A stretch of DNA of 64,000 nt from Lingula anatina (taxonomy: Eukaryota; Animalia; Brachiopoda): positions 52,864,788 through 52,928,787 of the forward strand of contig CM120640.1 in the NCBI GenBank assembly GCA_051362555.1. The letters are read 5' to 3'. Each line of letters starts with the position of its first letter. Within the stretch, counting starts at the first letter, position 1. Below are positions 14,144 through 48,391 of this stretch, piece after piece. The notes under the pieces were generated by a model, which worked only from the letters and a program-made list of their open reading frames with translations, was not told where the DNA came from and ran no database searches. Made by a program: the position numbers and the translations under genes.

Positions 14144-14177
14144 TATAAAAGCTCGTGGGCTATGTGAGTGATCAGTT
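14144..14177 (+). promoter_or_regulatory. Proximal TATA box plus initiator of the CRH/DH44-like gene
   Basis: TATAAAA at 14144-14150 and TCAGTT Inr with its A at 14174, exactly 30 nt downstream. A donor follows at 14557|GTAAGT and an acceptor tttccag| at 14655 lies just upstream of the ATG at 14672. Confidence 0.6.
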
Positions 14178-14671
14178 AGTTGAGTGCACGTTGAGCTGAG
14201 CACACCGCAGGAGCGGTGCACCACTCATAAGATCGATTTTACTGCGTGCTTCTCATACAGATATTATATTGCAATGAAACCAGTCAGGAATAAGTTTCAA
14301 TTGATACTATAAGTTAATCAAGGAGCTGTCAATAGAAAACTTGCTGTTTTTTCTTTTGCCTCAGGTGGGTGTTCTCAGCGGTGCAAGGAGCTATTAATTC
14401 AACTGATGACTTATTGCTTGCCAAGTGTGTAGAGGTTATTTATTTAAAAAGCTGTCGAGCAGCGCGTGAGACATCATTTCAAGCTGTGTCGCTTAGTGAA
14501 GATGGCCAAGTTAAACTGTATCTTAATTTTCTTTTTTAGATCATTTGGTTTTACTTGGTAAGTTTAATTAAACAGAGCTTTTCAATTAGCTAATTTTTAA
14601 AAAAATTTTCCGCATCTATATACACTGCTTATTTTTGATTTGTTTTTCTTTCCAGGTTTGAACCAAAGATT

Positions 14672-17600
14672 ATGACGACGTCACAAACAGCGTGGTCAAT
14701 CGTGCTCCGATTATTTTTACTACTAACTGTAGCCTCTCTACTCATACCATCCGCCCGAGGATACGTTCTGCCAAATTTAGACACAGTCCCAGAGGAATCG
14801 ATGCTTCCGGAGGTTCAAGACAGTGACTACAAAGCCAACAGAGTAGCCGACAAAATAGTACAAGTTTTATTAGAATCCAGAAAGGTCCACCACAGGGTTA
14901 AAAGACCGAGTAAGCACCATTCCCCTTCATCTCGTTATCAATTTAAACCGAGTAAGTACCCCTCCCTGTTAACCAGTTACTAACCTGGTGTGTGGTATCA
15001 CTGATCATTTACTGCGGCAACCACTTCCTAGAGTCGTCAGCAGCAAATTGAATATTTCACGTGTTATTGTTGAAATTGTTTTTTTTTCTTTATAGAACGA
15101 TGCTCAGCAGTTGACTTCGTTCAAATCTGCGCTAAAATTATATTGACAAGGTTAGCATCGATGCATTATTGTCAGCTTGTGTCTGCCTACATGTGACAAA
15201 AGTTGAGAACAATCATCGTTTCTTTTTTATTCAAAGAAAAAAGTAATGCAATTTTCAGATGCCTTGCTGACAGTAAATCATTTGTGATGAGGATTGTTTA
15301 TAATCCTACTTATCATACCTTTTATCCTTCCTCCTTCTTTCCATCCATGCCTCCTTACAGTAGCTTTCAACAGTAAAAGAATTTTTATTTTCAAAGCAAA
15401 TCTAATATTTTTTATGGTACACAATCTAATTATATAACATATTAAGTGTGTGTTTAATTGTATGACGTATTTAATCCATCCACCCGTGTGCTTGTGGTAT
15501 TGTATCCTCCATTTTTCGTTTTTATATTAATCTTGTTTCATTTTTCGTTATACTATATTGGATGTTTACGGTGAAATGCAAATTCTATAACAAACCCCTA
15601 CATTTATGGTACTTATAACATTTACCCCGTACGCATAATAACCTTGGACTTTAACATAAATTATGGAAACATGAAAATGAAAATAGCAGGTCAAGCTGGC
15701 AAATGAACTTGTCAAGTTTGCCCGTATGATAATTATAACTTAATGAGCGTAATACGTGTGGATATAATGGCAATGAAATATACGTTAATTATACGCCTAT
15801 TCGTTACTAAGCGTCTAAGTGCATAGAACGTACTGACACTGGGGCTCGCATGTCAGTGATGTCCGAGTACGTGATTGTCTAAACCGTATAAGTTGACCTT
15901 AGCGGTGACATCCGAGAACATGGTACAGAAAGGCACTAACTATGGTGTCACCCCCGTGTCCTCTTCATGTCGGACACGGATCTCTGATATCAGCACATAA
16001 CTAAAGCACCTGGCAATGTGGTATTCAATACCCCTGCATCATTTTGTCACTCTTATTGTCCTTAATTTCTTTTCATAAACCAACGTAGTCTGAATGGGTG
16101 CAGACCGTGGCTTGCACCTAGTCTTGCTTTGGCTTGCGGTCCACCCCCGACCACGTCCTGACTCCGGAACTGAGTAGATATTGTGCAACAATGTCGCCGA
16201 TTCTTGTTTACTCTCCATGAAAAATTGTGTTTTGGCTATTTCTGTTAATTTGTTCTTAACTTCGCGTTCAAATGCCATTCACATTCAGCCTATTGACATA
16301 ATCGATTGCCTTCCGGTTATATCTCGCTTTTGGAGACTTGTTCCTTCATACGGAATGATATATCACTTTGTAATTATAGACAACCGTGTACATAAGTTGC
16401 AATACAAAATGTCATGACATACTCATTGTGTGCAAAATTTATTAGCCTTTCTTTTATCCATTCAAAGTCATTGAGAAGATCCTGTAAAACACAACTGTAC
16501 AAAGAAACGCCTTTTTTTATAAGTCGATTGGTAACTATTCTTGCCGGTAGCGTTGCTTTATGTCTTTTATCGTCATTTGCCTTGAAGGGTCTCTATCGTT
16601 TATCATGACAACAATGTTTTTTAAGAAAACAATGTCGAAGGTTTGGAACTTGACTTAAAAGGGAGGCGTCTCTTGTGTTAAATAATACTTGTGAAGATTA
16701 GGTCATAACCTGATCACGACAAAGTATGCCTTTGAAACTCTAAAGGCCATAAAGTATCTTGATCTTATACAGTACCCTAGTATACTCTTTATGAATCAGA
16801 TTGATCTCCACGCTCATTTAAAGAAGCCAATTGGGAACAGTGTAAACGATTTTCTTTGAGTAAGCTATTAAATTTCAAAAATAACATACCTAAGCCGTAA
16901 CAAACCAGTGAGCATGTTTTCGTCGATACTTAATTAACTCCGACTTTTGCGTAGAATTGTTCTAACTTATCGATCCAAAGTTTCAAATTTTGTTTACTTA
17001 TCTATTAACACTTTATTCTCGGGCGCTATAGCTAATTTACGCTAGATTACCTCTTCGTTAACTATTACGAATTTCAAAGGAGCACCTTTTCCATAGATGT
17101 GTTTTCTTCGCTTACTAATTAGTTTCCTTCCTTGTGTGTTATGGGTGTCCTAGTACGTTGCCTTTGCAGTTGCATGTTTCCAATAGTGTTTATTGGTTTA
17201 AGGCTGACATATAGATATTTTTGGTGACTTTTAACTCCAGTAACCGACCCACCTGTCCCCCCATTGTGTCTTGCTCAAAGATTCTCACCTTCCGTGCTCT
17301 TAATGAAATATAAGACGTTTGAGAAGTCGATACTGTGTCATTAGGAACATATAGTGAACGCCATTGCGAGTAGGTTGTCATTAAGTAGACTTAATTATAA
17401 AAGACGCAAATCTTTGAAGTGTATTCAAAGGATTGTGCAGGATTTGAACACACTTCTTTGAACTGCAATACTTTTTTAGACTTGCAAAAGTTCTTTACTG
17501 GAAGGTCAGATTTTTTTCTAAAACTTAACGTGTACTTGTTGGTTTTTCATTTAATCTCACAGTTTATGTTCACTTAAGTGTGACGTCACAGTGGTCAGAT

Positions 17601-17847
17601 GATCAATATGAGCCAATCATAGCCTTCCATTTATGAACTTTATTCACAACGCACGTGTCTGAGAAATTTTCTGAATTTGCTTATTTCTTGATGTTTTATA
17701 GGTATAGCCGGACTTGACAACATCGATGTTGCTATAAGTACTTTAGAAAGAGCTAGAGGAAGTCGGCATCGTGAACCCGTGCTTGCTCTGGGAGGTATGA
17801 GTTTTGCAGATTTCAGGAAACTTTTTGAAAGCGGAAAACGAAGATAA
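14672..17847 (+). CDS. Secreted neuropeptide precursor, CRH/DH44 (ELH)-like; 127 aa; coding exons 14672-14909 and 17702-17847
   Basis: Exon 1 encodes a hydrophobic signal peptide (MTTSQTAWSIVLRLFLLLTVASLLIPSARG), an acidic pro-region and an RVKR site. A phase-1 GT-AG intron joins it in frame to give RVKR-PSIAGLDNIDVAISTLERARGSRHREPVLALGGMSFADFRKLFES-GKRR-stop, a 45-aa peptide with an amidation signal. Its N-terminus PSIxxxxxIDV parallels insect DH44 PSLSIVNPLDV. The family call is by eye. Confidence 0.75.
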
Positions 17848-20800
17848 CATAGACTTCCGGACGATGCGAATTGGGTTCGTCTTCTAACCTTACTTCGCGG
17901 ATGATATAAAAGAGACTGGTTGGAGAGTAATTTATTTTCGTACCATATTTTATCAGTGAGACCCTCAGATAAAGTATTTGTATATTTTGCTCTTTCACTA
18001 TATTTATTAAGTTATTCACTTTATGTAAGCACAATTGAACCCAAGACATGTAATATCTCAATATTATATAGACGATGGCGCAGTATGCCATTGTGAGAAA
18101 CATTCCTGCAGTTTTGAACAATTTTTCGTATCATATCAACGCCAGCATGTATGCCGTATGCGCACGTCCAGGAACACCTACATTTAGAAGAAGAGGCCCA
18201 CCTCTCCTACATCCTGCTGCACCCGACAGTTTCTCATAGGAAACAAACTGACACTTATCTCTTTACTGAAAGGTTCAATTGTTTAATGTGAAAGTCCCAT
18301 GATTTGACAAATACTGAACAGATCAAGATTCAAGCGCAATTAGTTGAACCAAATCCCAAAGGAGAAATGACTCTGGTATAGCAAAAACCAAAGAATAGCT
18401 ATTCCGAATGCTTGACTCGGTCAAACCGATACAATAGTGCTTGCACAAGTATGCTAAGTACTTTTACCACTTGCTGGTCATGAACTGATCTACCCAAAGA
18501 TACTTAAGTCGAGCTTTAGTTCATGTTTTAGTTTGTTTTGCGTTTTATTTATAGTAGGCTAAGCCTTATTGTGTCATATTGAGGAGTAAAGGTACTCCAA
18601 ATTTCAGTCCCAGTTTTAGATGAAGCCAGGGTTGCCTGAGCATTGTTATGTACAAAACGTTTGTATATATAAGATGTGCATTGAAAATATAGAAAGATAC
18701 TAATATTACCATTTTATTCCTGTGTTGTTCTTTTGTGAAATGAATCGAAGGTCGTTACTGGCGTTCTTACACTGTATAGAGAACTGGTTAGTGAAACATG
18801 TTGATCTACTTTTCTATTACTACGAGTATCAAATGGTTATGTATATAAAATATGGTAATGTTTTATCGCGCAAAAAATTGTTCTGGAAAACACTTTCCAT
18901 AAAAAAAAAACACAGTTGCACTACCTAGCAGCTGCTTTGATCAGCCAATATTGAAAAGGCAACATAAAAAGTGTACCCGGAAACAAACTACATGTAGATT
19001 TTAAAGTGTCTGAGCAAACGCTACTAAAACGTGTACGTTTGCCAACAGACCGTTCTCAAGAGAATTTGCAAGCTCTTTCAAATTCCAAGAAGTGAATGAC
19101 TCGCCTTTCAAGGCGGTGCAGACACATTAAACAGTGAGTGACTCGGAAAAGTGATGTTATGGTTACTTACGCATGTTCATTTAGTTTTAGGTCACAGAGA
19201 AACGCAATGTTTGTTTAAACAGTCTCTGGGGTTGATTTTACAATGAAAAATACAACGAGGGAGACCTGAGTCTAACTTACCACTGAGAAAACCCACGGGT
19301 TTCCTGAATACAAACCAATTTATTCAATACACACTGAATATTCTTAATCTGACCTATAGGGCGATCAAACTACGTATATTTTTGCTGTGTAAGAAGAACG
19401 CCTAAACGACTGAAATTGACCCGCCGCCCAGTAGCATTTAAATTTCACCGAGGTATCATGTTTTGGCGATACCAAAAGAGAAAAAGTAGACTCAAAACAC
19501 TTGAGTGCTTTAAAATATTACTCATACCTACGTGTAGTATGAAACATTATCATGTTAAACTAGGGTGTTACCATGTACATAAAACACAAAAGAAGAGCAA
19601 AACCAGACTACTAAACTCTCGACCACCTCAGAGAATTACTCATATCAACATGTTATTGCGCTGGGATATTTTGTTTGAGTGCCAATATTTAACAAAAGTA
19701 GATTACCAAACACTTGACAATCACAATGTGAGAAAAGTGCCTTTACTTTGCTTCAATCAGAATCAGTCAATTTATTCGTTAAAATTGGGCATCCTGTGAT
19801 CTATGCACGGCAGTAGAGTCTCACTGTGCTTTGTGAGTCACCAATGGAAATTGTGAAAATCGGCCAGTGAGTAAGTGTTACAATGCCTTACAATTTGAAT
19901 CAAAAATATCCGTCTGGTTCTCTGTGAGCACGCGTTTGAAATCATCATTCTGCTTGAGTCAGCTTCAAAATTTTACAAACCGTTCATCCCACTGGGTTTC
20001 TCGACTACACAATTATATTCAACAAGTTCAGTTACGATGGTCAATTGATATCAGCCAAAAAGCTATAATAGGAAATGATCACGACGCCCAAATGTGACGA
20101 TTCACCGTTATGTTTCTTTAACAACATGAGAAAATTAAACTTAGTGCCGAGAGGATGTATGATTATAGTCCTCAAAATAACACCATTTATTTTGCGTATT
20201 CTAACTTAAATTCGTGCAAAGATATGCATATCTTAGGAGACCATTTGGCCTTGACGGTTAGATACTGCACATCACGCCCATAATCTACAAGTACGTTAAC
20301 CCGTGTTACTATTGTGTGCGCTATAAACCCACTGATGAAACTGATTAAAGCAATCTAATAGCTTAGGATTAAAAAAAGGACCGCTGTCTGGAGACACTGA
20401 ATTGAAAATGAACTACAAAAATATATGGCTATAAGTTCTAAAAATGAATCACAAGGGTGAACGCTTTTATAACGTACAGGTCGTAGCTGTGCCCACTCGC
20501 ACAAGTGAGCACACTTATAAAATTGAAATTATCAATTCAACTGTTAGTGCATTGTATCAAGATATTAAGGACAAATCCATTATGCTGCAGCAAGCAATTG
20601 TACTGCATCTTATCTGGACTTTATTATAATAAGATAATCTCTTAGATGAACTAGGTAATGACCAGACCGGTGTTGTCTTCATTAAGCCCACTCGTCAAAG
20701 GCCAGTCTAATCATACATAGTATATATGATATAATGTAGAACGCAGTTTGTAATTAAAGAAATACCCGTTTAAGTTTCTACTAGTACACCTTCCACGATT

Positions 20801-21725
20801 ACTAGATAGTAATTAGTTTCATTGTAAATAACAGTCTTCACTCACACATGTACAAGGGGACACACTCTAAAGAAAATTGAAATGATCTGGGACCTTTTAT
20901 ACTTTTGTGGTCGGTCCTGAATGCTTTAAGTATTTTTCAGAAAATTTCTAAGGTCCAAGAGCAATGTGGTCATTGAAAACCCATTTTGCTGTTATAAATA
21001 TTTGACGTTCTGCGAATACGTGATGTCGCTTCAACTAGGCGACCTTGACATTAAGTTGACCTTAATTATAACGACCTCCGTGCCCATAGGCATTAGGCTA
21101 ATGGATTTATCTCCAGAGCAGATATGTATTTTCACCTCTTACCTCAACATTAAAAGTGAATAATAATTTAATTCCTTCAAAGGATTTTGAAATGAAATAA
21201 AACTCCGTAAATGGTCATAATATGGCTAACTGTTCGACAGTCAATAATTGCATCTTATCAAACAAACAAGTACAGTGTACTTGGAGAAGTATTTTTTCTG
21301 GTTTTTATCCACTATGTGCTTTTCCCGTATTAGTCTAGCATAACTATATATTTACTACTGTACACTGATTGCTAAGTAGTAGTGGGCAAGGCAAGGGTAT
21401 GTGCATTTTAGGGTCCTCCTCAGACCATTGCCTTATCCGCATCAATCTTATATATGTTTGGTTAAGTGTCAAAAAAGGGTAACCAATTAACTAGGTATCA
21501 TTAAGCTACTCTCTTCGTAAACAGTCCGATAAGCACAGAACCAAATACTGTTTAACAAAACATATTACAAAACTGTTTATCATAGTTTCTTATCCTACAT
21601 GAGATTCTAAAGACGGGTCAGACTTTATATATTTTTTGTGCATCAAAACTGAAATAAAGTGTTCTTATTTTGCAATTAACACTTGACGTGAGGCGTGTTA
21701 AATCTCTTTTCTCCGCGAGGATAAC

Positions 21726-21807
21726 CAGGCCTACCCAACTACCAGACTCGGCACCGAAAGATTCTGAATTCACCGGTATATCGGACCACACTAACCGTTT
21801 TCAAGGT
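21726..21807 (+). mobile_element. Solo terminal fragment of the MITE family seen intact at 40989-41542
   Basis: caggcctacccaactaccagactcggcacc...accggtatatcggaccacactaaccgttttcaaggt matches the TIR of the 41 kb element. Confidence 0.75.
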
Positions 21808-22118
21808 TTGACTATACTAGGAGTCGTTTATCAGCAACATTGAAGGGCTACCTGAAATGTAACTAGTCGGCTTAAATTCGTAAATGTAAATTGGAACAAT
21901 GCTAATCTATGATATCAAACATCAAAATTATTGAAAATTATTGAATGACCTTTAACACCCTTTTCTCTGATTTAGCTTTATTCGTACTATGGATGGTGTC
22001 ATTGAAAATGCAGTAGATAAGCGGAGCCATATATGCTAATACCGAATGCTTTTGGCGGTGCCAAGTCTGTCGCCTCTATCAAATCCTCCAATATACGGCC
22101 ATAGAAACGGTCTTGAAA

Positions 22119-22554
22119 TCCCCCTTTACACTGGACGGCGTCCTTTCTATTTGTATGGCCATGAAACTGACATCGCTGTGGTCGTAGAAAGGAGGCACAA
22201 GCATCGCTTTGGTTGCAGGATGAATGCTCAATGATCGGTCAGTTGTCGGCACGTAAAGTATTATTTTGGCCATTGTTTTGCTCTTTGCCAACATTTTGCT
22301 CCTTTGTATGGGGGATGTATGTCTGATCATTTAATTTGATTTTGTTACTATCCCCCGTCTTGTAACTTCATATGATATTACATTTCGTCATATTAATAAA
22401 TGGCAACTTTCAGTCATATTTCTTATTTAATTTTGAACAAAAACCTAGCTCCGTTTCACTTGTGAACATTTAGCTACATAAATCATTATTTCTTACTCAC
22501 AAACGGGGTCGTACTACGGGACGCAGAAAGGATGCCGTCCAGTGTAAAGGGGGC
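22119..22554. mobile_element. Degenerate MITE of about 435 bp with about 30-bp TIRs (Harbinger-like ends)
   Basis: ccccctttacactggacggcgtcctttct (about 22120) is inverted relative to agaaaggatgccgtccagtgtaaaggggg (about 22525-22553). The right flank is TTAA. Confidence 0.6.

Positions 22555-24315: not shown

Positions 24316-24319
<4 letters not shown>

Positions 24320-24353
<34 letters not shown>
24320..24353. repeat. (GA)n microsatellite
   Basis: Uninterrupted dinucleotide run. Confidence 0.9.
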
Positions 24354-24357
<4 letters not shown>

Positions 24358-29234: not shown

Positions 29235-29297
29235 TATAATATAATATAATATAATATAATATAATATAATATAATATAATATAATATAATATAATAT
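29235..29297. repeat. (TATAA)n pentanucleotide microsatellite
   Basis: About 12 tandem copies. Confidence 0.9.
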
Positions 29298-29761
29298 TTA
29301 AATTTACTATTTCATATCACGGAGAGTGCCAGGTAGTTACGCCCGACAGGGGCATCATTATACTTCTTTAAAATACAGATAAGGTTAAATTCAGTTAACA
29401 TTCCTGGTTGTTGGCACACAAATCGCCCGGCCCTTAGGTCGACTTCACATAAAGTGGTTCACCCATCGTGAACGCGCCACGTGACATGAAACTGTTGTTT
29501 TAGGAAGATCCGGATGCAGTTGGCGGACATGAAATTGTTGTTTCAGAAACCCCTTTTTGACAGTAATAGCTTTCTAGTCTTCAGTGAAAGTAACTGTAGC
29601 AATCTGTCCAAAAAATCAATGAAACTCTCGACAAAAACCAGCAAAGTACACTTGGGTATTACCATTTCTACAATGCCGAATTGTTCCGCTTTCTCATTTC
29701 ATATTGGGGTGTTGTCCACTTAAAATGCCGTTATGCCCTCTTAAAACACTCGTGTTTAATC

Positions 29762-29841
29762 TTGGTGTTGGTGTTGGTGTTGGTGGTGGTGGTGGTGGTG
29801 GTGTGTGTGTGTGTGTGTGTGTATGTGTGTGAGACAGTGTT

Positions 29842-29874
<33 letters not shown>

Positions 29875-29890
29875 GTGGGTGTGTTGGGGG
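29762..29890. repeat. Compound (TTGGTG)n/(GGT)n/(GT)n simple repeat
   Basis: Seen directly. It explains the spurious ORFs 29681..29941 and 29731..29916. Confidence 0.9.
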
Positions 29891-33106: not shown

Positions 33107-33600
33107 ATGAAGAAACCAATGGTAGTTCAAGTATACGCATCATTATTTTGCGTACTCCTCATATGTTTGACAGTTACAGAAGCATACTCATATATAAATG
33201 GGTAAGTTTTGCTACAGGATTTTTGTAAGTTGTATAGTTTATTTACCCTAAAGCGGTTCCTGTATCGCCTTTTCTCTACCGAAATACAAGAAAATGAAAG
33301 TTAAGATATATGATCATTTTCTCATTAAGTAAAACGGTTAACCCCTAAAAACATCAGCAATGTATGTTTGCCTTTTTTCGATTTAGATGAAACCGTAGCA
33401 TAAGATAGATAAATTTATAGGCCATTTTGCACTTGTGCATTCTTATGTTTTCAGCTTAGAAGATCAGGTCACGGATTTAGATAAAGAAGTAGATGTACTA
33501 TCAAATTTGGTCAGGTATCTAAAATCAAGAACGACTAACGGGTAAGAATGATGAACTTATTAGGCTTAATTTTGAAGTCTAACATATTGTATGAATGGAA

Positions 33601-33654
<54 letters not shown>

Positions 33655-36600
33655 TTGCTTGATGGGTATCTAAACCTCATATGTCAGACATATGTTTGAT
33701 AACAAGAACAAGAAGAGTTCAAAACAAAACAAAATGTCATAAAAATAATGAATTAAATACCCTGTTTAGAAGTGGCTAGTTTAGTCTTTGAAGGTTGCAT
33801 TTACCGTTACTATTCCTAAAGGGAAATGGAAGGCTATGCGTATGAGCAATTCAGCCTCTTAAAATCTAGAACCCAAACCCACAACTTTTAAGTCAATGGC
33901 CATTACTCAGCAATTATGAACGAGCATGTAATCATGAAAAAGTGATTTAAAAACATGACAGTGTAAGAAATGACAGTCTCGAGCTCACTAAGGATACACT
34001 AGATATCGCATGGGTGTATTTGTCAATTGCATATGTCATCAATTCAGGTAAGACAACTGTGGATGGACCAGGGAGGTTATTAAAGATCACACACACCCCT
34101 ACCGGATTCAGGAACGGCTATTATGTTCCTTGTAAGCGTGTTTTATTTGCCTGGCTCATTCAGATGTCACAGATTGCACTTACATACATCATTTGCCAAC
34201 AACTAATGTTTGTTTATTTTGCCTCAAAGTCTACCGACTTGACACATGATGACTGCTAATCGTTCAATAGCCCATCGATATGAGTTACGTCCATTCGGGG
34301 GGATTTACAACATGTTTTATTTGCTTAAGAAGCCATTAATGTCAGTTAATACATAGACGTCACCATTATCATTTAAAGATGTGCCTAATGGCCGATAAGG
34401 CACCCAATGAAGTGGCTTAATGCCATTGTTTTCATTATTGCAGTGTTAAAGCTATGAGTAGTGACATTTCCCTCAGCTGTCTTCACATTGTGCATTTCTA
34501 CTGATTTTGTACAGCTGGTTATTTGCATAGACGAAGAACGGTATGACTAATTCAAAAATTGGTGGGCGTTCACGTTTACACGTGCTTAAATCAGTTAAGA
34601 TAGCGACCAATTAAAGATGTTTTCAGGATAAAAATAGATGCTGCATTTTTAAAATAGACTGTCATAAAGTTGAGGGACAGTGAAGCATAAAAAATTGTAC
34701 TCGTGTCTGTATGTTTGTGTTTGTGGTGTTGTTAAATATTACTGACTTCAATAGCAAGATATTTATTGCAAAGTTAATCATGTTTTTGACCCTTAGTATT
34801 GGGGTAAAATTTCAATTTCACTTATTACATAACATCTTTGCAATTACAATCATCACTAATCACTTGTCATTTTACATGTGATAAATTATTTTTCAGACAC
34901 ATTCGAAAGATCTTGAAAGTAACGATGATCACTTACTATATCAAAGATTGTAAACTCTTAAAGATCCATTAAAAAGAATTTAGAATTATCAGTCAATTGT
35001 TCATCATTGTCTTTTATAGTCGCAAACGGCAGATAGACGCAGGCTTTGGCTCGAGAAACACGTTGGCACAGGATATTAGCAGACTAGTGCTAGGTAAGCA
35101 TATACGTATATGTAAATGTAAATTGAAAGCACGCGATAACTGCATCGGTAGATGACAGCTTCGTATGTTACAAGACTTGTATATTCATTAAAACGTTTCT
35201 CCAGGAAGTGATTGTGTTTTGAAAGACAATCCCATTCTAGGCTGAATAATAACATTAAAATGCACCTCGGCCGCGCCCCGTGGCTGTCTATTGGGTTCCC
35301 AAGTCTGGTTTTACAAACCTCAAATCAATGGCACCAGCATTCCGTTTCAAAACTGCCAATTCTACTGTAGACGCTTCAAAGAGGCGAATGAGCAATATAA
35401 TTCAGAGTTACTCTTTGAGTTGTGAAGCGAAGTACCAACAAAAACTGATTCTTTTTCACTGCAAAAATTCACACAAACTTAATCTCTACTGGGAATAATT
35501 AACCGACGGTATGAGTCGCTCTATGGCATCACTGTTATTTCCATACAAATGTATTATTTATAAAGTCTTTGAAATGTATGTTGCATCGATTTTCATGCCA
35601 ATCAAACGTTCGTCTTTTATAAGAAATTAGAAAATTTTGTGTTCATGAAATATTTGACAATCAGTGCCAGAAAAAAATTGACTTCTCAAACAGATAGCCC
35701 TACATTTTCTGGTTACCACACTTCACGTTCAAAAGTGAATTCTCAGCTATCAAAATGTATATGATGTTCAAAAACCCAATTCAGTATGTATGTATGTATG
35801 TAATACCATAATGTGACCCTAGCATTATTTTGAGCCTAAAAGCATTATAATTGGGATTTTGTATGTACATAATTGGTAAATGGACTAAGTAGCTTATGGA
35901 CATTTGCGTAAAATTTTTATATGACGGATGGAAAAATAATGTTCACTAAAAGCAAAATCTTTGATGCAGAATAATATTCTTGCGACCCCAATTACGCAGC
36001 GCAATAAAGTCATTATTTTTCGATGTTGCCTTTTGCGAGGGTGGGGGGTGCAGGGGGTGGAGGGTGTCACTTTCCTCCCTTTTCCTCATCTAGCATCCGT
36101 ACCATGCCAACAACCATTTGACCATTCCTTCACCAGAACACACGTTCTCGAAAAAGTTTTCTCGCATCACATATCCTCAAATACTGGACCTAATTAACCT
36201 CAAGAAAACACATTTACAAAACCTGTTGAATGTTTTTCGACAATTTGGTTCGTACCAAGTATCAAATATATTTGCATATCAAACATGGAGACGAAAAATT
36301 AGTATTTTAACATTTTTATGCACATTTATGTGTTCGGGCGCCTGTATTTCAAAACTGCCTTATCAATATCGCTTGCAATGAGGTATTTTTTATTTTATTA
36401 GATCATAAAATCACATCGGTGTTATGGGCACGATTTACGTATTGTTGTTGGTGCTGAAACGTTCGAATACCAGCGCGAAATAACTTATGTGAAATCGTTT
36501 TAATCCATTTACTGAAATGAACAATGCTTCCCACGCATTTTACGAAAGTCTTTAAAAGGAACCAATCACAGGTTTATATATTATTAGGGATTTTTTCCAC

Positions 36601-36829
36601 GGGTGGAATAATAGGTTGGCTAGCACAAGCCGCAAGAGCCACTGTTCGACATTTCTGTGCATAACTGTAGCATGTGACTGTAGTCCAATCATTGAAGCAT
36701 CCATATACCAAATATTTATTCTTTTTAAAGAAAATTTTCTCACTTTTAGCCCAACACAAAGCCCAGAGCTACAACAGTCCCGGAAGAAGACGAAGGAGCA
36801 TCAATACAAATAGTCAGCTGAGGCACTGA
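33107..36829 (+). CDS. DH31: DH31-type (Cys-free calcitonin-family) neuropeptide precursor; 111 aa; coding exons 33107-33201, 33455-33541, 35020-35093, 36750-36829
   Basis: The spliced product is MKKPMVVQVYASLFCVLLICLTVTEAYSYINGLEDQVTDLDKEVDVLSNLVRYLKSRTTNG-RKR-QIDAGFGSRNTLAQDISRLVLAQHKAQSYNSP-GRRRR-SINTNSQLRH*. All three introns are GTAAG...AG with matching phases (2,2,1). The 32-aa peptide ends in Pro-Gly-basic and carries the xIDAG(Y/F)GSR motif of annelid-type DH31. Confidence 0.85.
33604..33650. repeat. (TC)n microsatellite in a DH31 intron
   Basis: Uninterrupted dinucleotide run. Confidence 0.9.
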
Positions 36830-38338: not shown

Positions 38339-40988
38339 AAGTGGGGTCACTTCGATTATGATCTTTTGTGGTAGTGACACAGGCTATAGTCAGGGACCAG
38401 AATTACATTTTACGTTTTCTAATTCCTCTTCGCAAAATCAACGTTCAGGATATCTGAAAACCGGGTTTTTCTATAAAGGTATCAGATACCGAGTCAAATA
38501 TGGTCAGTTTCAAGCGTCAGTGTACTCAGTCTGCTTTATCAACTGCGTATTTGGATGGCTTTCATTCTCTAGAAATCGAATTATTAGGAACCCATTTAAT
38601 TGTTGACTTGCAACTGGATGGAAATTTCGTTGTAATAACTGCCCCATATTGTGGCATAGAACTTAATCTCCAAAAAGAATGGCATCTTTTCAGATGTCAA
38701 GACAATAATCGCCTGAAACAGTGTTTTGATAATTATCAAAGTAAGAAACAAAGACGAAAATAATTTAGGTTACAGTGTAATCAGCATATTTATTGGCTTG
38801 GATCATATCGAAACGCTGCGTTTGATACAGCAATTAGATAACACTAATTGACTGTGATTCTAATGATGAAATCAATTTGCACCGCCCTTATCATGTATGA
38901 CGATTTCTTGGTGTTTGCTTGAAGTATACCTCAAACCTACAAATAACATCTCACGCAAAAGAAAAATAGAAAAGCTCAATTCCAATAATATCAATCTTTC
39001 AAGACTTAATTTCAACTTACTTCGATTTGGGAAAGAATGCAAACCAATAGGGATCCCATCTTATCGGTCTTAGCCAACAAAACTATAACAATTACTGAAG
39101 GTAACAATACGTCAAGATTCCAAATTCAATAATGAACCTTAAATATAAGCGTGATACTTCGCGTGACTGCCTTCCTGGTGAGTAAGGAAGTGAAAACTGA
39201 TGTCTCTTTTTTTCGCTTCTCCAGCAACTACCTTCGGGCATAAGGGCATATTTTCCATTCATCATCTGAAACGTGATCCACGTGAATCAACTCATTACGA
39301 GAAAAACAATATTGGAAGAGTTGAGATAGGGTCTTTAAATCTACTCAAGATACCACTTTGATATTTGCTCTTGTTCTGATAATTTTTTTTATTATCAAAA
39401 GCAATAAGACGTGTAAGAGGTTAAATTTTATGATGAAATGAAAACCTATCCTTTTCTATGAAAATTTGACTAGCAAAACATTGTACATGCATGTATATTA
39501 GCTAAAGCTAGGCTGGGGACTACGGAGAACATAATTAGAAAACAGTTCATGCTGTTGCAAAAAAGTATCAAAAATTGTCATGACCTGATTGTCAAATTGT
39601 CAAACCTGATACCCTCCCCCCCCCCCTTTTCACTCTCCCTCAAGTTAGGCTCTACAAGACCCAAAAAGTAAATAATCGGTAGATCGTAGGCCCTTTGACT
39701 GTAGCATCTACCGCATAATTTCACTACTCGGCATTGTTGGAAAGGCATTTAGCGATTTTAAAAGGTTTACAGACACCGCCTAGCGTGTGCACCAAGAATC
39801 ATAGGGTGGTTTTTGAACCAAAAGATCAACATGATATTTTCTGTTCAGGAAAAATGCCGAGAGCAGAAATAGTTGACGCTTTATTAGCTACTAAATGCTA
39901 CTAAAGCATTCGATTTTGTTGGCAGAAATTAACTTTTCACCTTGCTACAGAGAGTCGGATTGCCTCTCAAACTCCAACAAGGATTGAGAGCAACCCATGA
40001 GGATAGGACAGGCAACGTTTAATTTGATGGCATAAACAGTGGTAAAAAACAAAGCCGCGTTCTTTTTTCTTCAGTTATACGCCCCTGAGACGCCATCCAA
40101 AGTCATCCTTGTACAAAAAAGTGCTTAAACGCGTAATCATTAAAATGTGTGTGTGTGTGTGTGTGTGCACACGTGCTCTTAATCAATCACACTGGCACCA
40201 ACAAATGCAAGCGAGGGCTCTATATTGTGTTAGTTGCACCTATATGAAGTGTGCAATATTCCGTCACAAAAAGCACATCAGCATATTGTACGCTGACTTG
40301 CCTATACGAACATTTTCAAAATCTGCAAAATTTTGCTGTTATTTATAGACATAACAGAGATTTGTGCACGATAGCAAATAAAAGAAAGATATTTTAATTT
40401 CAATTATAATTTTCTCGGTATTGAGACCATCAGTACATCTAGAACCAAGCTGATCTGCGCTACTCAAAAACAAGATCAGATTATACACTCAACTTAAGAG
40501 GACAAAAGAAAATAATATATTGACAAAGTCACTGTAAAAAGAAGTGGGGGAATGAAAATAAGGAAAGAATGAAACAGACCCAACTAAACTTAACATAATG
40601 CTAATAAATAACTAACCAAATAATTGCACTCCTTACATTTTCAGTACGCTTAGTTCCGATCTATGAATCCCACGAACACTTTTTCTAGCTATTAGAAAGA
40701 AGATGCATGTTTTAAGGCATTTTATTATATAGGTTTCCCGGGGAATTCGATTTTCAGACCATTCAATTAAAATTCATACAACAATGGGTCATTCAGTATT
40801 TCCTCGATTCATTAGGAGATAGGGATTACAAAGGATGCTGTTTTGCCTGCATTTATACTTACCTTTTCATGAAGTATATAATGCATTTAGCTTTGGGATT
40901 ACATGTATAACACAAGAGCTAAAACACCGAGTTTTGGACTAGGATTGCAGGTGATTTTGAATCTCTGGTTTATGGCAGCTTGCTATAT

Positions 40989-41542
40989 CAGGCCTTCCCA
41001 ACTACCAGACTCGGCACCTAAGGATCCTGAATTAACCGGTATATCATCGGACCACGCTACCCGTTTTCAAGGTGTGTGTCAGATCGCATTTCGGAGTATC
41101 ATACCCCAGAACAAATTTTGTAGCACGACTGCGGGCTCATCCACGCTCGGCTGAACAACCTTAAACTGTACTCTAACTTTAGAGTACTCTATTTTATTGT
41201 CTCTATGGGGATATATGGGGACTTTATGACATTCGGTTTGAATGTTTTAACCACTTTTGATAGGGCTTTTTTGCATTGTATTAGATTAATGTGGCAGTCT
41301 AAGGTTCAGCTAGGTGGCTTTCAAATTTATGCATCCGGTTTTAAAATCATATAGCGATTTTACGACAATCGTTTACTATCCAATCAAGGTGACAGCCGAG
41401 CATGCCAGGGCTCATCCTGTCGGTGTTCTGGCTGATACTCCGAAATGCGATCTGACACACACCTTGAAAACGGGTAGTGTGGTCCGATATACCGGTTAAT
41501 TCAGGATCCTTAGGTGCCGAGTCTGGTAGTTGGGTAGGCCTG
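40989..41542. mobile_element. Foldback MITE, 554 bp, with about 110-bp TIRs
   Basis: caggccttcccaactaccagactcggcacctaaggatcctgaattaaccggtatatc...gatcgcatttcggagtatca is near-perfectly inverted at about 41432-41542. tatat flanks both ends. Confidence 0.85.
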
Positions 41543-42147
41543 TATATACGTGGGATTCGTTAAGACCGGGTTGAACACTTTTTACTGAATTGATATATGA
41601 CTGATTGGAATAGGCAGTGAAAAGTTGTTCGTTCACAGTGATCCTACTACTAGAGATAAGGATGTAGGTCCACATACAGTGGATATTACTCTAGAAACCA
41701 AAAATCACATTTTTTCTTGAACTCGTGCAATCACCGCCTCAACACAAAATTACCTATTTGATTCGATCAAGTCGTGTCTTAAGAACAATTGTTTGCACAC
41801 ATAGCATAATCTTAACCACAATTTCCGTGAAAATCAATAGCAATTGTTGCTGATCTAATTATCTTAAGTGTTTTCATAATGATAACAGAGGAAATTGAGA
41901 AACAAGGCAGAGCCTACTAAGATGGTATTCTTGTATAACAGGTGGGATTTTTGACATGAAATAGGAGTGGAATACTACGTCATGTCTTCGAACGAGTTCT
42001 CAATAAGACATTGCGGATTTAATAAATTGCGCCCTCTGTCGCCAGAGAGAAACATAGTGTCGCTTAGTATCGAGTGCGGGGGTGAGGAATTCCGCATCCA
42101 TCACAAAAAGGTGGTCAATCAAAAGTAAAAAAATGTGATTAACGCTT

Positions 42148-42151
<4 letters not shown>

Positions 42152-42194
<43 letters not shown>

Positions 42195-42647: not shown

Positions 42648-43027
42648 GTGAGGATTTTATGAATAGTTTATCACAGAGAGGTACTTTTTCATTCCCGTTT
42701 ATCAGTTTATAGTTCACTAACTATAAGATAAAACAGTTCGTCCAGCAAATTTAAGTGTCATTTACACAATTATATGGGTTTCTTAGGAGCACTCTTTGAT
42801 CGTTAATAGTGCTGATCAATTATAGTTAATATTTTCTAATAGGAGAGGACTAAGGTTTCAAAGACAAAGAGACTAATTTAGACGAATTATGGTTCATATT
42901 CTGCGAGCGTCGTGATAGAAAATTTCACAAGGCCATTACATCCTAGGCAGTAATGGCCATCTATTATTCCGACATTATAAATATTCTTCATTTTCCAAAT
43001 TTAGGACATAAATAGAAAACTGGGAAA

Positions 43028-45126
43028 ATGTTGCCAGAATGGAGAAGTTTAGCTCACTGGGGTATGACTATTGTATTTTTCCATATCCTTGTTCTGAATC
43101 TAACAGGTGCCTCAAAACTGGAAGCCCTCAGGTGAGTTGTGTCATTTTAAAAGTCAGGATACATTAGAAAACTAATTACAGAAAATGTTGTGAACAGTTA
43201 CATACATTCCAGAGTAAGCAGAACTCGCAGAAAGAAAATCAGGTATTATTGCAAAACGCTGGGACGAAAGGTTATTTTGTTTAAATGACGTTTTCTTGGT
43301 CAAATGAACAAAAAATTGTAAATGAAAACATATATTTTGTGTCCTTTAGTGTTGATAAATGAGCTTGCCAGTGTCATGAAGGACCGCAGGTCTGGAAGTC
43401 TATTTATGATGTTGTCGGTCGACTGCAGTCAGTATGATGATGATGATGATTAGTATTGATACATTCATTGATTTGGGCCTTTGGAAAATTGTCTGTTTTA
43501 CATTCTTTAGAAGTATTAGAAACCTAAAACGCCAACGCAGCCAATTTTCTGAAATGAAGCGAGTATTAGAAGAAATCGACGCCGATTTATTGAAGCAACA
43601 GTAAGTATATCGAAACGATTTATTTTTGTGACACTCTTTGGTAGGGCCTATGTAACAATGAGCGCTTCTTCAGCGCATTGTTTACCCTTGGGCTTTTCTG
43701 CTGTTTTCATTTCTTCAAATAATTGCCCATACAATGTATTTCATATGAATCATATGGTGTCGTAATTCATTTTTTTGGTATAAATTTGAGTTTCAAGGTT
43801 GAAATTCACACGAATATTTGATAATAATATAGAACATTACGGATTACAGAAGAAAATGTCTTCTCGTATGGTATTTGTAAAGGTTTGAGTACAGCACAGC
43901 GTGTATATTTTCAGGAAACGGACATGTGCACTGAACGGGGGCATGAGCACTTTCTGTTTTGGAGAAAACATCCATGATAAAATGAACGCATATGAGTATT
44001 TGGGTAGCCACAAGAGTCCTGGCAGAAGAACCATCAGATCCACAGGAGATCTTCATGCTTGGCGGTAAGTTTTATATTTGGATTTCATCTGTTTTCTATA
44101 GGCTACCATACAAGTGTTTGCTCAAGTGTTGACTTACTGAAAGAATGGAAACCCCAACCAAGCCCTCTAAATGTGCCATTTGGATATGCAGCTTTTTTCA
44201 AGCAGTAATTTTATGTATATGGCTTTTCTTCATTTATTAAACGGAGACAATTTAAAAAAAAATTTTTTTAATACTGTAGACATTTCTTTTTATAGATTTG
44301 CAATTGAATTAGTTCTCACTTAAGGTATACAATATAGCACTTTCCGCACTCTTTTTAATCACTTTAGCACCACCGATGACGCATTTGCTGCAAATGCCTT
44401 GCGAAAAAATCTTAACAAAATTCTTTTCACGTCATTAATTGCTAGATGAACATAAGCATGTGTTAACATGGCGCAAAAACTTTTTTCTGGAAATATCAGA
44501 TCACAGATTACTGCAACTCAAGGACCATACAATGTGTTTGACCAGACAATCAACTTGTCATTTGAGTGCAAATTTGTTATGAAATGAAGTTGATATGGTG
44601 TCTACCTTTCACATTCCAATGTTGTGGGTTCACAAAATAGCTGTCTCGCGTTCTCAGAAACTGCACTGTAATGAAGTTAAGTTTGACGTTGTCCGTTGCA
44701 TGGCAAGATTACTTTTCCCGTGATAAGATTACTTAATGATTTTAATAAATACAACGCATCGCTGGTTCAACAGCTTTCATGATCATCGATCATTTCAGAA
44801 CCACACAATAGCGTTTTAAAGGAAGAAGGCCTACTTCTTAACAGGAAAATATCACGCTCCTGCCTCTTATATTTTGGCTTTGATAAATGATATTTGATAT
44901 TTTTTTCCCTCTGTTGAAGGCGAAAGTCGAATTTGCAAGATTTAGATAATATAACATAAAAGTTTACATATATATATATAGCATTGGTAAAAGCAACAAT
45001 CAAACACCCATTGTCAGAGACATCACATTGAGTCTTTATGACATCGCTTAACAACCAAAATAAACAAACAAGATGCAATGAAACCGGTCGGGGCAAAATA
45101 ACTGCTCTTCTTTATGTCTTTTTATC

Positions 45127-45157
<31 letters not shown>

Positions 45158-47153
45158 TAACAAATTAATATTATAATGTTCACTCAGATGAATATATGTT
45201 ATGCCATATCCTCGTCATTTAAGGCTTATCTATTTAGATTTACCATCGAGCCTTTGTCTTCCAATTTGATTTGGCACCAAAAAGACAAGATCATACTTAT
45301 AATATACGATAAATTCCTAACGTCTTCATCGAACAAATACATAAGAGTGGTTGTAGCGCATGCAGATCACGCTTATATCAAATGGCACCTTTCAAATTTA
45401 GTTAATTTCAGCAAGTCTGGTTAATTTTTTTTTTTTTTTTTTTTTTTGGTTTTCAGAAAACGAACCTGCAGCGTGAATGGAGGCATGAACCCATTTTGCC
45501 TCATCTCCGACCTTGACGCCAAGCTTAACGCCCAAGAGAAACTTGGCAGCAAATTCGGACCTGGTAAAAAACGTGACAGTAAACCGAAATCAAGGTAATA
45601 ACACAGTCATTTTCATGAGATCTCTAAATTATTTAAAGCATAGCTCTAGTCATCTGAACATAGGGTCTTAGCCTAATCTGACCGATTACTGACAGACAAC
45701 GATATTTTACAGCGGTATAAATCGAGAGAGTATTATCTTATAAAGCTTAACTTCCATATTGAAAACTTCTTAGTTTTAAATTATAAGTGTTAATATTCCT
45801 GCATTGAGACTTTCAAGTCGATATTGAAACTGTATTTTTCCACAGGAAAAGGCGTTCCATTTACTGGACTGGACCATGTCCATCAGGAACGGGCACCTGC
45901 AGTTATCCACTGGTCCCCGCCAGCCAACCGTCCCCGTCCATAGGGAATACTGGCAACATGTATGGAGTAAACACTGGCTTAGGTAAACCCAATTTTGGAG
46001 GGTTTGGTGAACCATTTAAGAGAGCCCAATCAAACAGTAACTTTTATCTTACTGATGAAAACCCCTACGCCTTCTACAAGAGAGGCAATCCAGCTGACAT
46101 GGACAGGTTCTACTTCAATGATGACGAGTCCATGTCCAACTTTTACAAGAGAGATGGCGAAGATGGAGAATTTGATATGTTTGTTCAGGGAGAAGACGTC
46201 GGTCTCGGAGAGGATTCCGAAAGGTATTTTTTCTTCACTTTTACAAATTTTCTATCGTTTTCCTTTCATACATGTAAATCTTACCATTATCTGAGCACTG
46301 TAAATGTTAAAACGATTTTTTTTGCTATAGTATCATTTTTAGTACATGTCAACCAGTTGAAATTGATAGTTGACATTGTGACATAATTACCAAAAACCCT
46401 CTTTACATTATTTCAGCGTTCTTCGCAGTATAGCGAGAAAGAGAAGTGGAATCTCGTCCTTGAAGCGTCTGCTAAGCAACTTGGATGCACGCCTTCATAA
46501 ACAACAGTAAGTTGCAACCATTTAGCTTTTAATAGTTAGCGAGATTTCTTATTTAGACAGTTAAAGAAGCAAAAATAATGAAAAAAATGTGTTCAATAAG
46601 AGCAATGCAAAAATTCATGAATAAGTGTTATATCCCTTTTCAATCATATGCTTTATAAGATCAAGGTACAGCTTCAAAAGTTACACTGATGTCTCCAAAA
46701 ATAAAATCACCATTAATAAAAAGAAAACTTCATGCCTCACTTTATCATGTTACCGACTCCAGGAAACGCGCCTGTCTCATGAATCTGGGCCACTCTTGTG
46801 ACGTGGAGAGTGCAGCGGCAGCAGCCGACACTTGGAAGTACCTGAACTCCGTCCACAGCCCAGGAAGGCGGCGCCGGGACACAAGGGCGGCCAATAAAGA
46901 TCGCAACACCGACGAAGCTGACGATAAAAGGGAGGTAACAGATGACAACTCAGCCGACGAAGAGAAGCGCGAAGAGGAGACGGCAGCTTCTGATGAATCC
47001 AAGGCGGACAAACGCGAAGAGGGTGTCAAACAAAAAGGTGGAAGCTTCTACAGTTTTTATCCATCCCGACGTAGTGAGGACTGGCAAAGTTCTGACGGTG
47101 ACGACGCTTCCCGGTTTTATTCCAAGTTTTACAAACTGGTTCCATTCTATTAA
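43028..47153 (+). CDS. Calcitonin-type neuropeptide polyprotein, about 446 aa; coding exons 43028-43131, 43511-43600, 43915-44064, 45457-45594, 45846-46223, 46417-46506, 46763-47153
   Basis: The first exon encodes the signal peptide MLPEWRSLAHWGMTIVFFHILVLNLTGA. Six GT-AG introns, all phase 2, give one open frame. It contains KR-TCALNGGMSTFCFGENIHDKMNAYEYLGSHKSP-GRR, KR-TCSVNGGMNPFCLISDLDAKLNAQEKLGSKFGP-GKKR and KR-ACLMNLGHSCDVESAAAAADTWKYLNSVHSP-GRRRR. An N-terminal Cys pair plus C-terminal Pro-amide in 31-33 aa is the calcitonin signature. Confidence 0.88.
43915..44064 (+). CDS. Exon encoding calcitonin-like peptide 1 (33 aa, C-x9-C, Pro-amide)
   Basis: ttttcag|G AAA CGG ACA TGT ... AGT CCT GGC AGA AGA ... 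TGG CG|gtaagt. The + strand frame is absent from the ORF track. Confidence 0.88.
45457..45594 (+). CDS. Exon encoding calcitonin-like peptide 2 (33 aa, C-x9-C, Pro-amide)
   Basis: Poly-T tract, then ttttcag|A AAA CGA ACC TGC ... GGA CCT GGT AAA AAA CGT ... TCA AG|gtaata. 16/33 residues are identical to peptide 1. Confidence 0.88.
46763..47153 (+). CDS. Terminal exon encoding calcitonin-like peptide 3 (31 aa, C-x7-C, Pro-amide), acidic KR-delimited spacers and an FY-rich tail
   Basis: ctccag|G AAA CGC GCC TGT within ORF 46689..47153. AATAAA lies at 47553-47558. Confidence 0.88.
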
Positions 47154-48391
47154 AATATCTCGTCACGAAACTAGATACAGTAGCTTATTACTTGTTAATG
47201 GTGGGTTAGAGGACTTTTATCATGCATTGCAAGTTGTGGCTCACTCATGCAACCTGTAAGCCCTGGAGCTATCTAGCGCTGCGTCCAACAGTGAGTTAAT
47301 ATGGCTTTGTATTTGATTCGTTCTAAACAAAAATCAAATTTTATTTGTAGATTGTCTTAAAGGCGGAGCACAAAAATGCCAGACCAAAAGCTATTTGCAA
47401 CTTGACAATGCTGAAAACAGATGGATTTGATATTTGCAAATAAGGTATGGTAGAAGTAACCGCTTCGTTATGTGCAATAATTTTTGCGCAGTCCAAAATA
47501 TTCATTGATTGCGCGACTGTAAATTACTGAAATAATTGGATAAATAAGGTTTAATAAATCTCTTACAATAAGGTAATAATTTTGATGTTTTTTTTTTATT
47601 TTTTGCTCAATTATAAATCCATATTTTTAAATAGAATGGTTTCAGATATGGTTCAACCTTAAAGCTAGGTTCTATGGCACACTTATCTATCACAGCACAG
47701 CAGTGTTGAACAGTAAAAAACATTAAGTGTATATCTCAGTGCATATATTACTTAACAATAACTCTTATAACACTATCAAATAACTGAACAATAAAATGTA
47801 AAGATATGTTACACACAGTGCACACTCCAAGATAAACTATAAAATACAAAACATGAAATATTTGCTAAAAATGTAATTAAAAATCAGTATATAAAATATG
47901 AACAATCAAATTATCAAAATCATACAACAGGTTATGAGATACACAGAAATATCCAGAAGTATTTTTCAACAAAGGCTTCAGATTTTACTAGAACTGTAAC
48001 ATTTTCTTCACCAGGACCATTTCATTTATGAAAATCTAGTCCAAATTCATGCAACACCAATATGGCAGCTTAATCATGTGACATTTCCTGATTTTCATAT
48101 GACCTGCAACAACTAAATTCTAGAATGTCTACTTTGCTGTTTTGCAGAATTTAAACTGTAGTGGATGAAAGAAATGTGGCACAGAAAGAGTTGAAAATAA
48201 AAAACATGATTTAAGAATATATCGCAAAAATTATTTCAATCAAGACAACATAATAAGTTATAAATACCAAAAAAAACTTACATCTATGCTAGTGATCATC
48301 TTGGGTCTTGAAGCAAATAAAACATTAAACTTGCTGTCTCTCATCTCTAATTTCGAGGCAAGATGGGGTAATTGTTAATTTATAATTTCAT

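What the first reader, a model, noticed from the sequence alone, without database searches (positions are those of the whole stretch)
14144..47558. Hidden tandem cluster of three class-B1 GPCR ligand genes: CRH/DH44-like, DH31 and calcitonin-type
Seen in sequence: three separate genes, each with a signal peptide, dibasic sites and a Gly-amidation site, lie on the same strand within about 33 kb, with no other recognisable gene between them. Established: calcitonin, DH31 and CRH/DH44/ELH peptides all act on secretin-type GPCRs, and DH31 and calcitonin are considered protostome paralogues. Inference: the physical linkage may preserve the ancestral tandem duplications that produced these hormone families, including the much older CRH versus calcitonin split. 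I am not aware of such a three-gene cluster being described, but I could not search.
Basis: partly seen in the sequence, partly recalled or inferred. Interest (0 to 1): 0.92.

Follow-up and report, generated by a model that had tools for sequence, protein, structure and literature searches.

The report
Brachiopod CRH–DH31–calcitonin hormone gene trio
In a lamp shell, the known DH31 and calcitonin hormone genes sit side by side, directly behind an unnamed gene that likely encodes the missing brachiopod member of the stress-hormone (CRH/DH44) family, an arrangement that may be a relic of the duplications that created these hormones.

Summary
The three genes are real and lie head-to-tail on the + strand. 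The animal is the brachiopod Lingula anatina. Gene 2 matches the published Lingula DH31 and gene 3 the published three-peptide calcitonin precursor. They lie 6.2 kb apart and share two phase-2 introns, which fits tandem duplication. Gene 1 is NCBI's 'uncharacterized' LOC106163843. It encodes a predicted 45-residue amidated peptide whose start, middle and end match motifs of published DH44/ELH/CRH peptides (patterns chosen after seeing it). Pfam, PDB, the ESM Atlas and 1.84 billion proteins gave no family hit, so the CRH label is about 80% likely. A 2021 survey found the DH44 receptor but no ligand in brachiopods. Chance adjacency is about 1 in 10,000. Against an ancient cluster: accession numbers suggest no adjacency in 4 of 4 other species, and gene 1 shares neither sequence nor intron position with its neighbours. 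Verdict: real cluster, not found in my literature searches; ancient CRH-calcitonin linkage plausible (about 0.5) but untested.

The parts
1042..1116 (+). Gene 1 alternative first exon (coding part of NCBI isoforms X1, X5)
   Evidence: followed by a GT donor
4258..4317 (+). Gene 1 alternative first exon (isoform X2)
14144..14151 (+). TATA-box-like element, candidate proximal promoter of gene 1
   Evidence: motif only
14502..14558 (+). Gene 1 alternative upstream exon (isoform X3)
14672..14909 (+). Gene 1 coding exon: signal peptide, propeptide, KR site, first residue of the mature peptide; phase-1 donor
   Evidence: RNA depth 1.57 (X4) and 0.45 (X7) in bin 14564-15227
14910..14951 (+). 42-base extension to a second, near-identical donor; adds 14 residues to the peptide's N-terminus (45 vs 59 aa)
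   Evidence: 4 of 5 NCBI isoforms carry it
17702..17847 (+). Gene 1 last coding exon: rest of the CRH/DH44-like peptide, Gly-Lys-Arg-Arg, stop
   Evidence: 3' UTR reads in bin 17884-18547, depth 1.55 (X4) and 1.93 (X7)
33107..36829 (+). DH31 gene, four coding exons (33107-33201, 33455-33541, 35020-35093, 36750-36829), intron phases 2,2,1; 32-residue Pro-amide peptide without Cys
   Evidence: XP_013397000, LOC106163849
43028..47153 (+). Calcitonin gene, seven coding exons (43028-43131, 43511-43600, 43915-44064, 45457-45594, 45846-46223, 46417-46506, 46763-47153), all introns phase 2; three Cys-ring Pro-amide peptides of 33, 33 and 31 aa
   Evidence: XP_013397049, LOC106163882
47553..47558 (+). 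Polyadenylation signal of the calcitonin gene
48395..52909 (-). Neighbour: BTB-BACK-PHR gene (BTBD6-like), three coding exons, tail-to-tail with calcitonin
53870..64000 (+). Neighbour: NCKAP1, head-to-head with the BTB gene; start approximate, runs off the window
   Evidence: 4 of 5 exon pieces tested hit Pfam Nckap1

Best explanation
Three peptide-hormone precursor genes lie head-to-tail in Lingula: DH31 and calcitonin are adjacent, likely tandem duplicates, and the gene in front of them likely encodes the brachiopod CRH/DH44/ELH-type peptide, so the trio is probably a surviving piece of an old array of secretin-receptor ligand genes. Shown: the gene models, their order, the shared phase-2 introns of DH31 and calcitonin, and internal exon duplication in the calcitonin gene. 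Inferred from established neuropeptide processing: secretion, cleavage at dibasic sites, C-terminal amidation and, for calcitonin, a disulfide ring. Inferred: the gene 1 peptide acts on the brachiopod DH44/ELH receptor, and DH31 and the calcitonins on the two DH31/calcitonin receptor groups, most likely through cAMP. Inferred history: DH31 split from calcitonin by local duplication in a protostome ancestor (about 0.9 that the adjacency is that relic); gene 1 is CRH-type (about 0.8); its position is ancestral rather than secondary (about 0.65 if it is CRH-type).
For: DH31/calcitonin: 6,199 bases from stop to start. Both have a phase-2 intron after the signal-peptide exon, an 87- or 90-base propeptide exon, and a phase-2 intron just before the dibasic site. 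PMC3890597 (passages) proposes this duplication in stem protostomes. Within calcitonin the two 90-base exons align (score 64; 0 of 2000 shuffles reach it), as do peptides 1/2 and 1/3 (0 of 2000 each). Gene 1: its 45-residue amide matches three patterns read from the DH44/ELH/CRH sequences in the supplement of PMC8557429. These are an N-terminal S-I..L-D-x-I..hydrophobic motif (914 of 1,000,000 shuffles), L-E-x-A-R at the spacing of human urocortin and fly DH44 (110), and C-terminal [RK]-L-[LF]-x-x-amide in the register of Aplysia and oyster ELH (2,465). N and C together: 1; all three: 0; the window's four DH31/calcitonin peptides match none. PMC8557429 lists DH44/ELH precursors only from nemerteans but its receptor in brachiopods, which leaves a vacancy this gene would fill. 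The Atlas's nearest clusters to the precursor are mostly peptide-hormone precursors. Chance that one of about four class-B1 ligand genes sits next to the pair on the same strand: 1-2 in 10,000 for 20,000-35,000 genes (assumed numbers).
Against: No unbiased method put gene 1 in the CRF family: Pfam 0 families for the peptide exon and two full isoforms, PDB 0, only itself plus three unrelated repeat proteins among 1.84 billion representatives, and no CRF cluster among the Atlas rows shown, where DH31 clusters ranked 2 and 3. The motif patterns were written after seeing the peptide, so the shuffle counts overstate significance. The peptide has a Pro/Gly stretch; a single-sequence model gives two helices with a break (pLDDT 68). 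Gene 1 has a phase-1 intron inside the peptide, unlike its neighbours, and no significant similarity to them (163-1661 of 2000 shuffles reach the scores). DH31-to-calcitonin sequence similarity is itself weak (best 56 of 2000). Accession numbers suggest no adjacency in 4 of 4 species compared: Capitella DH31 ELU08670 vs calcitonin ELT87883; Dinophilus DgyrP15681 vs DgyrP10954; Lottia ELH 169597 vs calcitonins 151867 and 166645; Branchiostoma CRH GI 260786674 vs calcitonins GI 260826567-73 and 260812099. That such numbers follow scaffold order is my assumption. No junction-spanning reads for gene 1 were listed.
Confidence: 0.5

Rival explanations
1. Gene 1 is the CRH/DH44 orthologue, but it came to lie next to the DH31-calcitonin pair secondarily (translocation, or gathering of neuroendocrine genes in one domain). 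Only the DH31-calcitonin tandem is ancestral.
For: No adjacency inferred in 4 of 4 other species; different intron phase and position; vertebrate CRH genes sit in the opioid and opsin paralogons with no conserved neighbourhood found in amphioxus or tunicates (PMC7406891 passages); a large scan will meet some chance neighbours.
Against: Chance adjacency on the same strand is about 1e-4 per genome (assumed gene numbers). The region has evidently kept an old DH31-calcitonin tandem that appears broken in two annelids.
Confidence: 0.27
2. Gene 1 is not CRH-type: it is a strongly diverged local duplicate of DH31/calcitonin, or a separate peptide family, possibly the ligand of an orphan secretin-type receptor such as the 'PDF-like (unc4)' group.
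For: No profile hit to CRF; DH31 clusters rank 2 and 3 for the precursor in the Atlas (scores 0.91, below the shared-feature level of true family members); adjacency would follow naturally; an unassigned PDF-like receptor group exists in brachiopods.
Against: No Pro-amide, no Cys, no phase-2 intron before the dibasic site, no significant similarity to DH31 or calcitonin; three CRH/DH44/ELH motifs occur in the right order and register.
Confidence: 0.18
3. Gene 1 is a weakly expressed, non-functional or mis-modelled unit, or the adjacency is an assembly artefact.
For: Read depth is under 2 in two of four runs and next to none in the other two, with no junction listed; no homologue found.
Confidence: 0.05

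Closest known systems
Lingula DH31 and calcitonin precursors (PMC8557429, supplement)
   Same: The same two proteins; the paper notes both ligands and both receptor types in L. anatina.
   Different: Taken from transcripts; the passages read say nothing on genomic linkage. Gene 1 is absent from its supplement (0 hits for three gene 1 motifs) and DH44/ELH is listed for nemerteans only.
Lophotrochozoan DH44/ELH (nemertean, Platynereis, oyster, Lottia, Aplysia), insect DH44, vertebrate CRH/urocortin
   Same: Amidated peptide of about 40-47 residues after a dibasic site; N-terminal S-I..L-D-x-L/I motif; L-E-x-A-R as in insects and vertebrates; C-terminal basic-L-L/F-x-x-amide. By eye the propeptide also resembles that of Tubulanus DH44.
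   Different: One residue shorter between S-I and L-D than protostome members; lacks the hydrophobic residue before S; Pro/Gly linker; intron inside the peptide, whereas beetle DH37/47 exons hold the whole peptide (PMC6585902 passage); two N-terminal splice forms; no profile hit.
Local duplication of neuropeptide genes before the vertebrate genome doublings (Hwang et al. 2013, seen only as cited in PMC5207463)
   Same: The idea that related ligand and receptor families arose by tandem duplication; CRH and calcitonin receptors map to one ancestral chromosome.
   Different: That is chromosome-scale linkage reconstructed for vertebrates; here the ligand genes are direct neighbours in a living protostome.
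Amphioxus calcitonin-type genes; amphioxus vasopressin/NPS pair; bilaterian insulin-like and GPA2/GPB5 clusters
   Same: Tandem neuropeptide genes kept from old duplications. Three amphioxus calcitonins have near-consecutive GI numbers; the other examples are recalled, not from a call.
   Different: The amphioxus CRH gene is numbered far from its calcitonins; I found no case of CRH-type next to calcitonin-type.

Membership tests
CRH/DH44/ELH (gene 1) | Secreted precursor with an amidated peptide of about 35-47 residues between basic sites | tested here: met
   45 residues, KR before, G-KRR after
CRH/DH44/ELH (gene 1) | N-terminal S-[IVLF]..L-x-x-[LIM]...hydrophobic motif | tested here: met
   pattern post hoc, spacing falls between vertebrate and protostome forms
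CRH/DH44/ELH (gene 1) | C-terminal basic-L-[LF]-x-x-amide | tested here: met
   the only such motif before G-basic in six frames of the window
CRH/DH44/ELH (gene 1) | Match to the family profile (Pfam CRF) or to a known member | tested here: not met
   these searches also missed the true calcitonin peptides, so they are weak for short peptides
CRH/DH44/ELH (gene 1) | Long amphipathic helix (recalled for vertebrate CRH) | tested here: inconclusive
   amphipathic stretches at both ends; two helices with a break in a low-confidence single-sequence model
CRH/DH44/ELH (gene 1) | Activates a CRH/DH44-type receptor | not testable with these tools
Calcitonin/DH31 (gene 1 as a paralogue) | C-terminal Pro-amide; phase-2 intron before the dibasic site; similarity to neighbours | tested here: not met
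DH31 (gene 2) | About 31 residues, Pro-amide, no Cys; matches published Lingula DH31 | tested here: met
   features from PMC6002491 passages
Calcitonin-type (gene 3) | N-terminal Cys pair and C-terminal Pro-amide | tested here: met
   3 of 3 peptides
Ancestral ligand cluster | Adjacency or linkage conserved in other phyla | tested here: inconclusive
   0 of 4 species adjacent by accession numbering only; chromosome-scale linkage not testable here

The most novel reading that the evidence does not exclude
Lingula keeps a pre-bilaterian tandem array in which the CRH-type and calcitonin-type hormone genes are still neighbours, followed by the younger DH31/calcitonin duplication and internal exon duplications: physical evidence that two hormone families with no detectable sequence similarity descend from one gene, plus the first brachiopod CRH/DH44 ligand.
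Probability: 0.5. Interest if true: 0.8.

Novelty: new variant of a known kind. Interest (0 to 1): 0.6.

Why it matters
The receptors for CRH, calcitonin and their kin are clearly related, but the peptides have diverged too far for sequence to show a common origin; PMC3961327 calls the origin of the invertebrate ligands undescribed. Gene order is one of the few independent lines of evidence. The DH31-calcitonin tandem gives direct support to the proposed stem-protostome duplication. If gene 1 is CRH-type it fills a reported gap in brachiopods, gives a ready ligand for a receptor without one, and turns 'did CRH and calcitonin arise by tandem duplication?' into a synteny question that existing chromosome-level genomes can answer.

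Tried and rejected
No whole genome was held, so other DH44-like genes in Lingula could not be excluded. No RNA holder was listed; raw-read runs of the same species label were offered. Reads were laid only on 13900-33800, so I did not check junctions of the DH31 3' half or of calcitonin with reads; published transcripts stand in. My first guess that gene 1 ended in exons near 25.5-26.2 kb was dropped: there are no reads there and the 17.7 kb exon runs to G-KRR-stop. A possible exon at 43350-43400 is not in the published or NCBI protein. Hits P0033-P0035 are a zinc-finger, an RCC1-repeat and a fucosyltransferase-like protein, rejected. The metagenome hit L001 is a bacterial-looking contig whose match is one 8-residue word and reads through stops, rejected. 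A calcitonin alignment found only the Lingula protein (1 of 117 candidates) and nothing among 294 metagenome stretches, so no foreign locus could be compared. No complex was predicted, for lack of a receptor sequence. Earlier scan findings held nothing on this locus. Literature: ten searches; I saw no report of this linkage in the listings or in the passages read, and no main text cites six of the accessions. Not held: Mirabeau and Joly 2013, the starfish CRH paper, Sekiguchi 2016. Hwang 2013 and Cardoso 2024 were seen only as citations; any of these could mention linkage or a Lingula CRH. Supplementary Figure 5 of PMC7200681 (calcitonin synteny) is a picture and only its legend was read; supplements of PMC6425005 and PMC12638048 were not seen.
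Full report
Setting. The window is AT-rich animal DNA without N. The BTB-BACK-PHR exon at 48398-49480 is 99% identical to an NCBI protein of the brachiopod Lingula anatina; NCKAP1 follows head-to-head. No whole genome was held.

Observation. Reading the sequence and joining exons by coordinates gives three complete precursors on the + strand. Gene 1 has two coding exons (14672-14909, 17702-17847; 127 aa) and a second donor at 14951 that adds 14 residues. Gene 2 has four (33107-36829; 111 aa) and gene 3 seven (43028-47153; 446 aa). Stop-to-start distances are 15,260 and 6,199 bases. No other recognisable gene lies between them, and reads between 19.2 and 32.5 kb fall on dispersed repeats only. 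CpG observed/expected is 0.78-0.88 from base 1 to 47,600 and 0.27-0.32 over BTB and NCKAP1, which suggests an unmethylated tissue-specific domain beside methylated housekeeping genes (inference).

Genes 2 and 3 are known. The supplement of PMC8557429 holds both as Lingula DH31 and calcitonin transcripts. NCBI has them as XP_013397000 and XP_013397049, both 'uncharacterized'; the window's calcitonin differs from the latter at 5 of 446 residues, so this is probably another individual or haplotype. Both genes have a phase-2 intron after the signal-peptide exon, a propeptide exon of 87 or 90 bases, and a phase-2 intron just before the dibasic site. Calcitonin repeats the module internally: its two 90-base exons align with score 64 (0 of 2000 shuffles), and peptides 1/2 and 1/3 align likewise, though 2/3 does not (315 of 2000). 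Similarity between DH31 and calcitonin is at best marginal (56, 462 and 1107 of 2000 for the peptides; 489 and 881 for the propeptide exons), so their homology rests on the Pro-amide, the introns, adjacency and the literature. PMC3890597 and PMC4772807 (passages; section 24 of the latter) propose a duplication in stem protostomes. The adjacency seen here is what that predicts.

Gene 1 is the open question. It is NCBI LOC106163843, five isoforms, unnamed, identical to my models, with alternative first exons as far upstream as 1042. Low read depth covers its coding exon and 3' UTR in runs X4 and X7; X1 and X2 show next to none, and no junction was listed. The predicted product is a 45-residue amide, or 59 in the extended form. 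PMC8557429 found DH44/ELH precursors in nemerteans only, yet the receptor group in brachiopods too (passages and section 8), and three gene 1 motifs have 0 hits in its supplement. I compared the peptide by eye with the DH44, ELH, CRH and urocortin sequences printed there. It starts with S-I and then G-L-D-x-I-x-x-A-I, much like the Platynereis DH44 repeats. It has L-E-x-A-R fifteen residues after the first Pro, as in urocortin, and ends in K-L-F-x-x-amide, in the register of oyster and Aplysia ELH. In 1,000,000 shuffles these patterns occurred 914, 110 and 2,465 times, the first and last together once, all three never; the window's four other peptides match none. The patterns were written with the peptide in view, so this is support, not a P-value. 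Unbiased searches were blank: Pfam, PDB, 1.84 billion representatives (three unrelated hits) and the Atlas, which sees a hormone precursor and ranks DH31 clusters second and third but lists no CRF cluster. The same kinds of search also missed the true calcitonins, so the blanks weigh little. A single-sequence model gives two helices with a break. I put CRH/DH44 membership at about 0.8. Gene 1 is not a recognisable DH31/calcitonin paralogue: no Pro-amide, a phase-1 intron inside the peptide, no significant similarity.

Is the linkage old? Gene 1, calcitonin and BTB are each recorded on a 471,628-base NCBI contig, and the DH31 accession falls between theirs, so the order is probably shared by the reference assembly. 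With assumed gene numbers of 20,000-35,000, the chance that one of four class-B1 ligand genes lies beside the pair on the same strand is 1-2 in 10,000; for any of 80 neuropeptide genes it is 2-4 in 1,000. I could not search other animal genomes; metagenome scans gave nothing usable. Identifiers in papers gave an indirect test on four species, and none looks adjacent: Capitella, Dinophilus, Lottia and Branchiostoma. Oyster, Pinctada and Notospermus were dropped because their identifiers came from different annotations or a partner was missing. This reading assumes that numbers follow scaffold order, and it cannot see chromosome-scale linkage. Neighbours shared by mollusc and human calcitonin loci (PIK3C2A, TRAF6, FAR1, CPSF7, SMTNL1; legend in PMC7200681) were not recognised in this window. 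So the trio is not a widely conserved block; if ancestral, it survives in few lineages.

How it likely works. Each precursor would be secreted, cut at basic sites and amidated (established neuropeptide processing). The gene 1 peptide would act on the DH44/ELH receptor, DH31 and the three calcitonins on the two DH31/calcitonin receptor groups that Lingula has. Since the N-terminus of such ligands engages the receptor core (PMC3961327 passage), the 14-residue splice extension could alter activity (speculation). Nothing here shows co-regulation.

Literature seen. PMC8557429: passages, section 8, part of the references, supplement parts 8, 9, 10, 251, 252, 253 of 387 and term searches. PMC7200681: passages, supplement part 3 of 4 and a term search. 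PMC5207463 and PMC4772807: passages and one section each. PMC6425005, PMC12638048, PMC4237046, PMC6585902, PMC5818035, PMC3890597, PMC3961327, PMC7406891, PMC6002491, PMC7251081: passages. None of what I read reports this linkage or a brachiopod CRH/DH44. Several key papers were not held, so absence from print is not established.

Verdict. Observation confirmed. Two genes are known, their tandem position and the third gene appear unreported. The CRH label is likely, and an ancestral CRH-calcitonin linkage is an even bet that public genomes can settle. Interest 0.6; 0.8 if the linkage proves old.

Noticed in passing
window 14896-14960: Two near-identical splice donors 42 bases apart, both ending on a Pro codon, give a 45- or 59-residue peptide; 4 of 5 NCBI isoforms use the longer form.
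   Followed up: partly
window 43511-46875: The calcitonin gene holds two propeptide-plus-peptide modules in one precursor; phoronid, other brachiopod, nemertean, Capitella and several mollusc precursors show the same two-module layout, so the internal duplication looks old.
   Followed up: partly
window 45846-46223: A 378-base exon inside calcitonin encodes non-calcitonin segments between basic sites: a Cys-pair, Pro/Gly-rich stretch and two short pieces ending in F-Y before KR. Novocrania has only a short spacer here. Possible extra peptides.
   Followed up: no
window 1042-14558: Gene 1 has at least four alternative upstream exons spread over 13 kb, suggesting several promoters.
   Followed up: partly
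window near 47600: Sharp fall of CpG observed/expected from about 0.8 to about 0.3 between the hormone genes and BTB/NCKAP1.
   Followed up: no
window 21726-21810, 40984-41548, 31314-31903, 8190-8431: Small inverted-repeat (MITE-like) elements; copies elsewhere are transcribed and dominate the reads laid.
   Followed up: no
window 52909-53870: BTB-PHR and NCKAP1 start about 1 kb apart, head-to-head; a shared promoter is possible.
   Followed up: no
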